Virus record (IMG/VR): IMGVR_UViG_2534681674_000012
DNA length: 8,296 nucleotides
DNA from: a virus
Lineage: Duplodnaviria > Heunggongvirae > Uroviricota > Caudoviricetes
Reading direction: 5' to 3' (one strand)
Below are positions 5,806-6,759 of the stretch, in pieces. The translations under genes and the position numbers were made by a program. Positions within the stretch are counted from its first letter, which is position 1. The number at the start of each line of letters is the position of its first letter. Below the pieces are notes generated by a model. The model searched no databases. It worked only from the letters and a program-made list of their open reading frames with translations, and was not told the DNA's origin.

Positions 5806-6564
5806 TTAAATTCTGGTCCTTACAATATCAACCTGAAGATTCTTATCTTGTGCTGATTGATAAATCACAAACCTTTTACTACCTGCATTGAAAGAAGTAG
5901 ACAAAACCAGACAATTATCATAACGAGCAAGAACATAATACCAACCATCATTATAATTAATCATTTCATATTCTTTCTTAAACTGCGGTTTGTAATATCC
6001 TGTCAGAAATGAAAAAAGCCAGAAATATGCCACAAAAGCAATCATCACAATCTCAAAAAAATGTTTTTTTATAAATGGCTTATCATAGAAGCATGATACC
6101 GATAAAAATCGCCCATAAGATCTTATCGAAATTGTAACCGCCAGCGCAATCGCTGCTGACAGTAGCAAAAGAGGTGCCTGAATCTTCTGTCTCAATATAG
6201 AAAACTCAATAATTGCCGGCACAAACAATAATTCCACAGCAAAATAAAGGCGAAATACATTTAGCTCTTGCATAGAATGTTTTCTTTTCACTGCGAAAAA
6301 GAATACAACACCAATACCCCAACCGATAAGAAATATAGCAATGACGATAACTGCAAAAAATAAACTTCTGGCAACATCATCAACACCTGCACCTACAATC
6401 CACCATGGGAAGCCGTAGTAAAAAGAAGTACCCCATCCATAGAAATAAGCACTCCCCCATCCAAGGCATCCCATGTAGGCAATAAAAAGTGAAGAACTCC
6501 TGAGCAGCGCACCATCCTTCATAACCACCCCAATACAAGATGATAACATTGGCTTACAACTCAT
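5806..6564 (-). CDS. Hypothetical polytopic inner-membrane protein (about 5 TM segments plus ~50-aa C-terminal soluble tail); prophage cargo (moron) gene
   Basis: 252-aa ORF, markedly AT-rich relative to the flanking Q and lysis genes. Hydrophobic segments LFIAYMGCLGWGSAYFYGWG, SLFFAVIVIAIFLIGWGIGVVFFFAV, LYFAVELLFVPAIIEFSIL, APLLLLSAAIALAVTISI and FFEIVMIAFVAYFWLFSFL. The likely true start is the third Met (MKDGALL…, ATG at 6520-6522), which is preceded by GGGGTGG. Sits between pR' and the lysis genes, same strand as Q. Confidence 0.75.
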   Translation of the reverse strand: MSCKPMLSSCIGVVMKDGALLRSSSLFIAYMGCLGWGSAYFYGWGTSFYYGFPWWIVGAGVDDVARSLFFAVIVIAIFLIGWGIGVVFFFAVKRKHSMQELNVFRLYFAVELLFVPAIIEFSILRQKIQAPLLLLSAAIALAVTISIRSYGRFLSVSCFYDKPFIKKHFFEIVMIAFVAYFWLFSFLTGYYKPQFKKEYEMINYNDGWYYVLARYDNCLVLSTSFNAGSKRFVIYQSAQDKNLQVDIVRTRI

Positions 6565-6730
6565 AACAAAAGCAATTCAATGCCGTCAAGAGGTTACAGG
6601 CTAAAAAAACTCTATTACATTGCAGTCAGCATGTTTACTACACAAATACAATTCAGAGCATAAAAACTACTCGGCGGCAGGTTATTGAGACTCATCAATG
6701 ACATGTAAAAAACGCCCATTATTGGTGTCA

Positions 6731-6759
6731 AGTTTCCCCAAAGTTATTCAAAAAGTCAA
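6731..6759 (-). promoter_or_regulatory. Late promoter pR'-like (Q-utilisation region) downstream of Q
   Basis: Minus strand reads TTGACTttttgaataactttgggGAAACTtgacaccaataatggg, colinear with the lambda pR' region as recalled (TTGACTtattgaataaaattgggTAAATTtgactcaacgatggg). -35 TTGACA-type at plus 6754-6759; -10 GAAACT at 6731-6736, weaker than lambda's TAAATT. Lies 43 nt after the Q stop. Confidence 0.55.

What the first reader, a model, noticed from the sequence alone, without database searches (positions are those of the whole stretch)
5806..6759. AT-rich membrane-protein cargo gene directly behind the pR'-like late promoter, in the slot that stx occupies in Shiga-toxin phages
Between Q and the lysis cassette, where lambdoid phages carry induction-coupled cargo, sits a 252-aa protein with about five TM helices and a ~50-aa C-terminal domain. 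Its composition is clearly foreign to the flanking phage genes. I see no convincing intrinsic terminator between the pR'-like promoter (6731-6759) and the gene start (6522/6564), while a strong one lies after it at 5349-5375. That layout would allow constitutive expression from pR' in a lysogen and strong Q-dependent expression on induction. I do not recognise the protein. There is an FxxxH motif (FIKKH), but the other CPBP/Abi motifs are not convincingly present, so I do not call it that. Candidate roles are superinfection exclusion or abortive infection, envelope modification, or a virulence/fitness factor.
Basis: partly seen in the sequence, partly recalled or inferred. Interest (0 to 1): 0.7.

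Follow-up and report, generated by a model that had tools for sequence, protein, structure and literature searches.

The report
TfpB-family membrane gene in stx slot
The gene is real and sits where Shiga-toxin phages carry their toxin, but it is an already catalogued inner-membrane protein of unknown function (TfpB/STM1630 family) that is also found in the classical phage 434 and in about a fifth of E. coli genomes.

Summary
On the minus strand, a lambda-type Q (98% identical to lambda Q) and a pR' homologue (6759-6731) are followed by an AT-rich ORF (36.5% GC against ~51% in the flanks). The ORF encodes a protein with five TM helices and a small beta-barrel. The true start is most likely 6522 (238 aa). 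No stable hairpin lies between pR' and the gene, and a strong terminator follows at 5375-5347.

The protein is not an orphan. It belongs to Pfam PF27470 'TfpB' (the 'STM1630 family' of NCBI's PGAP annotation; PHROG 1521). It is 99.6% identical to a 'putative membrane protein' of phage 434. Related DNA occurs in 1197 of 5426 complete E. coli genomes. Distant relatives occur in Pasteurellaceae, Neisseriaceae and Moraxella, where tfpB sits in the pilin inversion region.

Phage 434 has an intact terminator in front of the module. The window carries a decayed copy of it, and 570 genomes share that decayed junction. PR' transcripts made without Q should therefore read through tfpB-tciB.

No fold, Pfam or PADLOC match gives a function. 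No candidate catalytic residue is conserved, and dN/dS is 0.12-0.18. Best guess: a binding-type lysogenic-conversion protein acting at the periplasmic face of the inner membrane. Exclusion of incoming phage is the leading guess, and it is untested. Catalogued but uncharacterised; modest interest.

The parts
6802..7425 (-). Late antiterminator Q, lambda type
   Evidence: Pfam PF03589, E = 4e-58. 202/207 identical to lambda Q.
6731..6759 (-). pR' homologue: -35 TTGACT (6759-6754), 17-nt spacer, -10 GAAACT (6736-6731), followed by a -10-like AATAAT pause element
   Evidence: Alignment with lambda 44,480-44,800. Identical in phage Lambda_2B8.
6662..6683 (-). Decayed remnant of the terminator that precedes the module in phage 434, and left end of the shared cargo block
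   Evidence: The 434 version folds at -13.3 kcal/mol and carries eight U's (z = -2.8). The window version has substitutions and a 4-nt deletion and folds at -4.6 kcal/mol (z = +0.2). The BLAST block shared with 434 starts at 6683.
6540..6589 (-). Candidate own promoter(s) of the gene: TTGACG (6589-6584), and TTGTTA-18-TGtTATCAT (6569-6540)
   Evidence: Promoter scan. The block is conserved upstream of the ETEC-plasmid allele, which has no Q nearby. Not shown to be active.
5806..6522 (-). tfpB/STM1630-family gene: 238-aa inner-membrane protein, N-in, five TM helices, periplasmic small beta-barrel
   Evidence: PHROG 1521, E = 8.9e-154. Near-identical proteins carry the precomputed Pfam label PF27470. 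AF2 model pLDDT 85. Positive-inside rule across 29 sequences. dN/dS 0.12-0.18.
5562..5720 (-). DUF3927 / TciB-like small membrane protein, second gene of the module
   Evidence: Pfam PF13064, E = 3.4e-14. PHROG 1470. Same order in 434 and 2B8.
5311..5551 (-). Small ORF (5311-5505), frameshifted relative to the 62-aa gene of 434, overlapping a weak STnc100-like RNA match (5346-5551)
   Evidence: tblastn gives two frames. Rfam 37.5 bits, below the gathering score of 47.
5347..5375 (-). Strong intrinsic terminator. It is the first efficient stop after pR' in this prophage
   Evidence: 8-pair stem with 7 G-C pairs plus a U-run. -17 kcal/mol, z = -2.4. Annotated as a terminator in 434.
5153..5262 (-). 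Remnant of the nanS-p esterase gene (first 25 nt and last ~85 nt); the rest is deleted
   Evidence: BLAST against 434.
4978..5006 (-). Second terminator-like hairpin just upstream of the holin gene
   Evidence: 11-pair stem. -16.2 kcal/mol, z = -3.2. Annotated as a terminator in 434.
4228..4940 (-). Lysis genes: P21-type class II holin (4725-4940) and lysozyme RrrD (4228-4725)
   Evidence: Pfam PF04971 and PF00959. RefSeq annotation.

Best explanation
SHOWN. The ORF is a genuine gene, most likely starting at 6522 (238 aa), for a TfpB/STM1630-family (Pfam PF27470) inner-membrane protein. Its N-terminus is cytoplasmic, it has five TM helices, and its C-terminal SH3-like small beta-barrel faces the periplasm. 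It is the first gene of a 1.45-kb AT-rich cargo block: tfpB, tciB, a small ORF or RNA element, then a terminator. Lambdoid phages carry this block directly behind pR', in the place where Stx phages carry stx.

INFERRED: expression. Here the block is fused to a lambda-type Q/pR', and the terminator that precedes the block in phage 434 has been destroyed. PR' is constitutively active in lysogens. Its Q-independent transcripts should therefore run through tfpB-tciB and stop at 5375-5347. With Q they should continue into the lysis genes. A conserved upstream block suggests the gene also has its own sigma-70 promoter. The protein is therefore expected to be made in the lysogen, which makes it a lysogenic-conversion ('moron') product.

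INFERRED: mechanism. No His, Asp, Glu, Cys or Lys is conserved across the family. The constrained parts are the aromatic- and Gly-rich TM1-loop1-TM2 segment, TM5 and the first strands of the barrel, and they all lie at the periplasmic face. So the protein most likely works by binding an envelope component, not by catalysis.

My committed guess is that it excludes incoming phage genomes, or other envelope-crossing agents, at the inner membrane.

Likelihoods:
- Identity, family and architecture: about 0.9.
- PR' read-through expression in this arrangement: about 0.6.
- Non-enzymatic envelope binder: about 0.6.
- Superinfection exclusion specifically: about 0.3.
For: Family and identity:
- PHROG 1521, E = 8.9e-154.
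- PF27470 label on proteins 99-100% identical.
- 99.6% identical to a phage 434 gene.
- Homologue in the M. bovis pilin inversion region.

Architecture and topology: AF2 model with pLDDT 85. K/R counts per loop across 29 sequences: N-terminus 1.3, loop 1 0.03, loop 2 1.45, loop 3 0.38, loop 4 2.9.

Selection: dN/dS 0.12-0.18, with the lowest pN in residues 1-57. The ORF is intact at the slippage-prone tract in 679 of 682 genomes.

Slot: 434, 2B8 and BP-4795, plus a third Q type carrying tfpB-lpxR-pmrD in place of stx2.

Terminator loss. The same junction is present in 570 genomes and in the deposited phage genome Lambda_2B8.

PR' is constitutive and is normally stopped at tR': PMC7547250.

Own promoter. 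Salmonella STM1630 has a mapped start site whose -10 SNPs silence the gene (PMC6785131).

No conserved candidate catalytic residues.
Against: - There are no expression data for this prophage.
- The -10 hexamer GAAACT matches the consensus at only 3 of 6 positions, and the scan did not call it. PR' may therefore be weak here.
- Rho-dependent termination in the ~200-nt untranslated leader cannot be excluded.
- No PADLOC hit, no fold match and no PDB sequence match, so nothing positive points to exclusion.
- Chromosomal single-gene copies in Pasteurellaceae, and the copy in the Moraxella pilin locus, are not obviously phage-related.
- Deleting Salmonella STM1630 gave no growth or macrophage phenotype (PMC6785131).
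Confidence: 0.5

Rival explanations
1. Host-adaptation or virulence accessory factor. On this reading the protein conditions the envelope for life in an animal host or supports co-carried virulence cargo, and has nothing to do with phage exclusion.
For: Family members sit next to:
- eltAB on ETEC plasmids.
- sseJ in Salmonella.
- cdtABC in G. parasuis, and an RTX toxin with hlyBD in a Pasteurellaceae MAG.
- lpxR, in three different arrangements, once together with pmrD.
- iroB/iroC-like genes, with a bor-like gene nearby.
- Pilin genes in Moraxella.
A copy is also carried on a Shigella plasmid. All carrier taxa are animal-associated. STM1630 is up-regulated in macrophages (PMC6785131).
Against: Adjacency can be explained by a shared vehicle. 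These loci are horizontally acquired, often phage-derived islands, and the orientation relative to the neighbouring gene differs from case to case. The STM1630 deletion had no macrophage-replication phenotype, and the gene is naturally silenced in the invasive ST313 lineage (PMC6785131). A motility-screen hit was re-examined in a follow-up study (PMC4534456); I did not read its result for STM1630.
Confidence: 0.25
2. Late lytic-cycle function. On this reading the protein matters mainly after induction, when Q drives the late operon. It might tune holin-mediated lysis, or protect the lysing cell or the progeny, for example against re-adsorption or superinfection during the latent period.
For: It is the first gene of the late operon, immediately upstream of holin and endolysin, with three different Q types. 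In the 434-type arrangement an intact terminator should keep PR' transcription Q-dependent. It is a small inner-membrane protein, as holins and antiholins are.
Against: Homologues function outside any phage context, with no lysis genes nearby. A conserved upstream promoter-like block exists. The window prophage is a remnant whose Rz and structural genes are fragments, yet the ORF is intact.
Confidence: 0.15
3. Functionless passenger. On this reading it is a hitch-hiking or decaying gene kept only by linkage to Q and the lysis cassette.
For: Several protein clusters show frameshifts or an internal deletion (P0021, P0026, P0028, P0070, P0076). The tfpB ORFs of M. lacunata and M. equi are truncated. 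The promoter is inactivated in Salmonella ST313 (PMC6785131). No phenotype has been reported.
Against: dN/dS is 0.12-0.18 between alleles that are saturated at synonymous sites. Full-length ORFs and an invariant motif set are kept across three bacterial families. Only 3 of 682 genomes carry the O157-type frameshift.
Confidence: 0.08
4. CPBP/Abi-type intramembrane protease or another membrane enzyme. The first reader raised this lead from the FIKKH motif.
For: It is a multi-pass membrane protein with an FxxxH-like string.
Against: No Pfam hit to PF02517 or to any enzyme family. The F..H string is not conserved outside the enterobacterial clade, and no Glu or His is invariant in the family. No fold match.
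Confidence: 0.02

Closest known systems
Phage 434 gene CPT_434_68 'putative membrane protein' (OL657226), and gp58 of Escherichia phage Lambda_2B8
   Same: 99.6% and 97.9% protein identity. Same module order (tfpB, tciB, small ORF, terminator) and the same slot between Q and the lysis genes. 2B8 also has the same lambda-type Q/pR' and the same decayed terminator.
   Different: 434 uses an unrelated Q82-like antiterminator and keeps an intact terminator in front of the module. Both phages keep nanS-p, which is deleted in the window.
Salmonella STM1630 ('STM1630 family protein' in NCBI PGAP)
   Same: Same family and same length (238 aa), 46% identity, same predicted architecture. AT-rich horizontally acquired gene.
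   Different: It is a chromosomal single gene next to sseJ, with no Q or lysis genes. It has its own mapped promoter. It is macrophage-induced, and its deletion has no phenotype (PMC6785131).
Moraxella bovis/lacunata TfpB, the ORF inside the pilin inversion region that gave Pfam PF27470 its name
   Same: Detectable homology (25-29% identity, tblastn E = 2e-19). The N-terminal W..AY.YGW...YG.PWW motif and the C-terminal YY[IV]L motif are shared, and the length class is similar.
   Different: It lies between inverted pilin gene segments beside a Piv-type recombinase, not in a phage. The ORF is truncated in M. lacunata and M. equi. My recollection of the 1990-91 papers that named it could not be checked in the library.
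stxAB cassette of Stx phages (for example BP-4795)
   Same: Same genomic slot: downstream of Q/pR' and upstream of nanS-p and the holin. Same regulatory logic of a Q-dependent late operon with foreign-composition cargo.
   Different: No sequence or functional relation: stxAB encodes a secreted AB5 toxin, and this gene encodes an inner-membrane protein. In Stx phages tR' stands between PR' and the cargo (PMC7547250). In this window that terminator is lost.
Prophage inner-membrane superinfection-exclusion proteins (P22 SieA, T4 Imm, HK97 gp15)
   Same: Prophage-encoded, non-enzymatic, inner-membrane location and expected expression in the lysogen. This is a resemblance in kind only.
   Different: No sequence, profile or fold similarity was found. 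No exclusion phenotype has been tested. Membership is not claimed.

Membership tests
TfpB / STM1630 family (Pfam PF27470, PHROG 1521) | Significant match to the family profile | tested here: met
   PHROG 1521, E = 8.9e-154 over residues 31-252. Proteins 99-100% identical carry the precomputed PF27470 label. One RefSeq record names the 238-aa product 'STM1630 family protein'. The local Pfam and NCBIfam copies lack the model, so searches gave no hit.
TfpB / STM1630 family (Pfam PF27470, PHROG 1521) | Homology to the name-giving Moraxella tfpB ORF in the pilin inversion region | tested here: met
   tblastn E = 2e-19 to the M. bovis locus. That ORF lies between two inverted pilin 3' segments. Pilin and an IS110/Piv-type recombinase lie beside the M. 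lacunata copy.
TfpB / STM1630 family (Pfam PF27470, PHROG 1521) | Shared architecture and motifs: five TM helices, the W..AY.YGW...YG.PWW...ARS motif, an invariant Gly after TM5, and a C-terminal YY[IV]L beta domain | tested here: met
   Alignments A1, A3 and A4. AF2 model pLDDT 85.
Phage 'moron' (autonomous cargo unit in a phage genome) | Base composition differs from the flanking phage genes, and the unit is present or absent between otherwise collinear phages | tested here: met
   36.5% GC against ~51%. Absent from lambda. Replaced by stx in BP-4795. Combined with three different Q types.
Phage 'moron' (autonomous cargo unit in a phage genome) | Own promoter | tested here: inconclusive
   TTGTTA-18-TGtTATCAT was found by the scan. 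The upstream block is conserved with the ETEC-plasmid allele. No transcript data.
Phage 'moron' (autonomous cargo unit in a phage genome) | Own terminator | tested here: met
   Strong hairpin plus U-run at 5375-5347, behind tfpB-tciB-small ORF. Annotated as a terminator in 434.
Q-dependent late-operon cargo (stx-like placement) | Located between pR' and the lysis cassette, co-oriented with them | tested here: met
Q-dependent late-operon cargo (stx-like placement) | A terminator (tR') between pR' and the cargo, so that expression requires Q | tested here: not met
   Window: -4.6 kcal/mol, z = +0.2, and no terminator in the scan. The condition is met in phage 434 (-13.3 kcal/mol, eight U's).
CPBP / Abi intramembrane protease (PF02517) | Conserved EExxxR, FxxxH and HxxxN/D motifs, and a profile match | tested here: not met
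   No Pfam hit at E <= 0.1. No invariant Glu or His in the family alignments.
Known anti-phage defence or exclusion proteins | Match to a PADLOC model or to a functionally annotated PHROG | tested here: not met
   PADLOC gave 0 families. All four matching PHROGs are of 'unknown function'.
Known anti-phage defence or exclusion proteins | Reduces plating or DNA entry of a challenging phage | not testable with these tools
   Requires plaque assays.

The most novel reading that the evidence does not exclude
TfpB proteins could be a previously unrecognised class of non-enzymatic inner-membrane proteins that face the periplasm and have a fold not seen before. On this reading they travel with exotoxin and virulence cargo across Enterobacteriaceae, Pasteurellaceae and Moraxella for a functional reason. 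That cargo includes the stx slot, LT, CDT, RTX, SseJ, LpxR/PmrD and pilin. The reason might be conditioning the envelope for toxin or pilus export or release, or acting as a new family of membrane-level exclusion proteins. Loss of tR' in the lambda-Q lineage would then be an adaptive switch from induction-coupled to constitutive expression.
Probability: 0.15. Interest if true: 0.65.

Novelty: already known. Interest (0 to 1): 0.3.

Why it matters
The gene is one of the commonest uncharacterised cargo genes in the most medically important slot of lambdoid prophages, the one that carries Shiga toxin. It is present in about 22% of complete E. coli genomes, often in two copies. It also occurs in ETEC and Shigella plasmids, in Salmonella and in C. 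rodentium.

Its function would tell us what else this slot is used for. Nature also offers a ready-made comparison: the same 1.45-kb module occurs with an intact terminator upstream (630 genomes) and with a decayed one (570 genomes). That pair can test how loss of tR' converts induction-coupled cargo into a lysogenic-conversion gene.

As it stands, this is a catalogued family of unknown function and not a new kind of system.

Tried and rejected
- Local Pfam, NCBIfam and PADLOC scans of the protein gave no hits. The Pfam model PF27470 is newer than the local copy.
- The first AF2 run, on a shallow 25-sequence enterobacterial alignment, was poor (pLDDT 58). It was replaced by a run with distant relatives (pLDDT 85).
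- Foldseek found nothing significant against PDB (best E = 1.0) or BFVD (best E = 0.04, a 68-column partial match). The only theme is a weak SH3-like resemblance of the C-terminal barrel.
- A profile search against PDB sequences gave 0 hits at E <= 10.
- Literature searches for 'TfpB' returned an unrelated type IV pilus ATPase and chemistry or anaesthesia acronyms. 'DUF3927' returned nothing useful.
- `search for related loci` with the widest alignment failed for lack of a conserved stretch. It was repeated with a tighter alignment.
- I suspected widespread pseudogenisation after finding a frameshifted O157:H7 copy. One query missed the site. The corrected query showed the lesion in only 3 of 682 genomes, so I rejected that idea.
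- I rejected CPBP/Abi because there is no conserved His or Glu.
- I considered that toxin adjacency implies a toxin-related function. I downgraded this, because orientations differ between cases and all these loci are horizontally acquired islands.
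Full report
**What the window is.** The window is a decayed lambdoid prophage of E. coli. The stretch 5300-6850 is 100% identical to E. coli 2013C-4974, where the remnant lies next to tRNA-Arg and fimZ. 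On the minus strand the order is:
- an IS3-family transposase fragment (7531-8178) that cuts ninI;
- Q (6802-7425);
- the ORF in question;
- a DUF3927/TciB-like gene (5562-5720);
- a small ORF;
- a strong terminator;
- a P21-type holin and a lysozyme.

After these come only fragments of Rz, terminase, head-tail joining, tape-measure and tail-fibre genes.

**Checking the observation.**
- The ORF 5806-6564 is open. All 24 aligned full-length homologues begin at the Met encoded at 6522, so the product is most likely 238 aa.
- The gene is 36.5% GC (GC3 31%), against about 51% for Q and the lysozyme.
- Q is 202/207 identical to lambda Q.
- The proposed promoter aligns base for base with lambda pR'. 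The -35 hexamer TTGACT (6759-6754) is identical. The -10 hexamer is GAAACT (6736-6731) against TAAATT in lambda. Homology continues through the pause region and then stops.
- The scan finds no terminator between the promoter and the start codon.
- The hairpin at 5375-5357 with its U-run is strong (-17 kcal/mol, z = -2.4).

**What the protein is.** It is not an orphan.
- It matches PHROG 1521 at E = 8.9e-154.
- Proteins 99-100% identical to it carry the precomputed Pfam label PF27470, named TfpB.
- One RefSeq record calls the product 'STM1630 family protein'.
- In the phage collection it is found in the classical phage 434 (99.6% identity, annotated 'putative membrane protein') and in Lambda_2B8 (97.9%).
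- Related DNA occurs in 1197 of 5426 complete E. coli genomes, with a median of two places per carrying genome.

An exhaustive profile search of 1.8 billion representative proteins found only 72 hits, so the family is small. A scan of one genome per species placed it in four groups:
- Escherichia and Salmonella;
- many Pasteurellaceae;
- a Neisseriaceae member (Conchiformibius);
- four Moraxella species.

The earlier protein search had added Citrobacter, Cronobacter, Klebsiella, Enterobacter, Yersinia and Shigella.

In M. bovis the homologue lies between two inverted pilin gene segments. In M. lacunata it lies beside pilin and a Piv-type recombinase. This matches my recollection that tfpB was named as an ORF of the Moraxella pilin inversion region. 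I could not check the original papers in the library.

**Structure and constraint.** With distant relatives in the alignment, AlphaFold2 gives a confident model (pLDDT 85, pTM 0.79). It has five long helices and a five-stranded small barrel at residues 184-235.

Across 29 family members the N-terminus, loop 2 and loop 4 are rich in Lys and Arg, and loops 1 and 3 are almost free of them. This gives an N-in topology with the barrel in the periplasm.

No relative was found:
- Foldseek found nothing significant in PDB or BFVD.
- A profile search of PDB sequences found nothing at E <= 10.
- The only hint is a weak SH3-like resemblance of the barrel.

The family-wide invariant or nearly invariant residues are mostly aromatic, Gly, Ala, Ser, Pro and aliphatic, plus two Arg. 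No His, Asp, Glu, Cys or Lys is conserved. This argues against an enzyme, and specifically against the CPBP/Abi idea.

Between alleles that are saturated at synonymous sites, dN/dS is 0.12-0.18. The first 57 residues are the most constrained.

A frameshifted copy in one O157:H7 genome turned out to be rare. It occurs in 3 of 682 genomes and consists of one base lost from each of two 7-nt homopolymers, so it may be an assembly error. The gene is therefore real and maintained.

**The slot and the module.** The window and phage 434 share one 1,450-bp block at 97.8% identity (window 6683 to 5238). The block begins exactly at a terminator hairpin that 434 annotates just downstream of its Q gene. 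It runs through tfpB, tciB, the small ORF and the second terminator, and it ends 25 nt into nanS-p. In the window, nanS-p has been deleted apart from its ends.

Phage 434 uses an unrelated Q82-like antiterminator. A 68%-identical allele lies behind a third type of Q. The layout there, which from memory is the Stx2-phage layout, is methylase, tfpB, lpxR and pmrD on the other strand, nanS-p, DUF1378, DUF826, holin. In Stx1 phage BP-4795, stxA1B1 lies between Q and nanS-p. The claim 'same slot as stx' is therefore correct.

**The terminator.** The 434 hairpin folds at -13.3 kcal/mol, is followed by eight U's and stands out from shuffles (z = -2.8). In the window the same stretch carries substitutions and a 4-nt deletion, and it folds no better than shuffled sequence (-4.6 kcal/mol, z = +0.2).

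This is not a private mutation. The decayed junction occurs in 570 complete genomes and in the deposited phage genome 2B8. The intact version occurs in 630 genomes, and some strains carry both versions at different loci.

PR' is constitutively active in lambda and Stx lysogens, and its transcripts are normally stopped at tR' (PMC7547250). I therefore infer the following for this arrangement:
- Q-independent transcripts run through tfpB-tciB and end at 5375-5347.
- That terminator then serves as the first target for Q.

This is inference. The -10 hexamer is weaker on paper than lambda's, and I cannot exclude Rho-dependent termination in the leader.

**Own promoter.** The scan finds an extended -10 promoter-like site (TTGTTA-18-TGtTATCAT, 6569-6540). 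A block starting at TTGACG (6589) is conserved upstream of the ETEC-plasmid allele. That allele is only 58% identical in protein and has no Q nearby. Salmonella STM1630 has a mapped start site whose -10 SNPs silence the gene in ST313 (PMC6785131). An autonomous promoter is therefore likely but not shown.

**Contexts elsewhere.** Outside phages the gene is a single-gene insertion or an island passenger. It is found:
- next to sseJ in Salmonella;
- next to lpxR in C. rodentium;
- divergent from eltAB on ETEC plasmids;
- on a Shigella plasmid;
- next to iroB/iroC-like genes, with a bor-like gene nearby, in E. coli;
- next to cdtABC in Glaesserella parasuis, and next to an RTX toxin with its exporter in a Pasteurellaceae MAG.

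The recurrence of toxin and virulence neighbours is striking. However, orientations differ between cases, and all of these are horizontally acquired regions. A shared vehicle is the more economical explanation.

**Function.** Nothing I ran assigns one. Published work on STM1630 shows macrophage induction, but its deletion has no growth or macrophage-replication phenotype (PMC6785131).

I commit to the reading that this is a lysogenic-conversion moron. Its product would act by binding at the periplasmic face of the inner membrane. Exclusion of incoming phage or other envelope-crossing agents is the single most likely role (about 0.3). Next come a host-adaptation role (about 0.25) and a late lytic role (about 0.15).

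**Verdict.** The object is an already catalogued but uncharacterised family member, so novelty is low and interest is modest. The most useful new point is the natural pair of arrangements, with and without the upstream terminator, which makes the expression hypothesis directly testable.

Noticed in passing
window 787-2148 (+): A 453-aa LRR protein matches the T3SS effector EspK (NCBIfam NF011913, 918.8 bits, just under the cutoff of 934). RefSeq calls the identical region 'hypothetical protein'.
   Followed up: partly
window 5311-5551 (-): There is a weak Rfam STnc100 match (37.5 bits, gathering score 47, E = 1.8e-5). It overlaps a 64-aa ORF that is frameshifted relative to the 62-aa 'putative membrane protein' of 434, and it ends at the strong terminator. 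This may be an sRNA or 3'-UTR element and not a gene.
   Followed up: partly
window 5153-5262: The nanS-p esterase gene present in 434, 2B8 and Stx phages is deleted here. Only its first 25 nt and last ~85 nt remain.
   Followed up: yes
window 215-475 (-) and 5080-5169 (+): Sub-threshold Rfam matches to IS009 (86 bits, gathering score 117), CssrB and Esr41. They may be prophage-associated sRNA-like elements.
   Followed up: no
L003 1166-2125; L010 4863-5823; L044 5972-6919: tfpB is linked to the lipid A deacylase gene lpxR in three different arrangements. In 434 lpxR lies upstream of Q. In C. rodentium it is a divergent neighbour. In another prophage type it is a convergent neighbour, together with pmrD.
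   Followed up: partly
L006-L009 (ETEC), L018 (G. parasuis), L016 (Mesocricetibacter MAG), L005 (Salmonella): Family members lie directly beside exotoxin or effector loci in unrelated taxa: eltAB, cdtABC, an RTX toxin with hlyBD, and sseJ. This could reflect a shared mobile vehicle or a functional link.
   Followed up: partly
window 6058-6073 (-): An A7-C-A-T7 tract lies inside the ORF. Three of 682 genomes have A6 and T6 (a net -2 frameshift), which may be slippage or an assembly error.
   Followed up: yes
L011 (JAIITD010000172.1): A 3-kb contig of a 'Veillonella sp.' MAG is essentially identical to this E. coli prophage region (ninI, Q, tfpB, tciB). It is almost certainly a binning contaminant.
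   Followed up: no
L028, L029, L030 (M. equi, M. lacunata): The tfpB ORFs are truncated (~195 aa, against 261 aa in M. bovis). The gene therefore appears dispensable in those species.
   Followed up: no
window 7531-8296 and 2600-4250: The prophage is a remnant. An IS3-family element cuts ninI upstream of Q. Rz, terminase, head-tail joining, tape-measure and tail-fibre genes survive only as fragments, while Q, tfpB, tciB, holin and lysozyme stay intact.
   Followed up: partly
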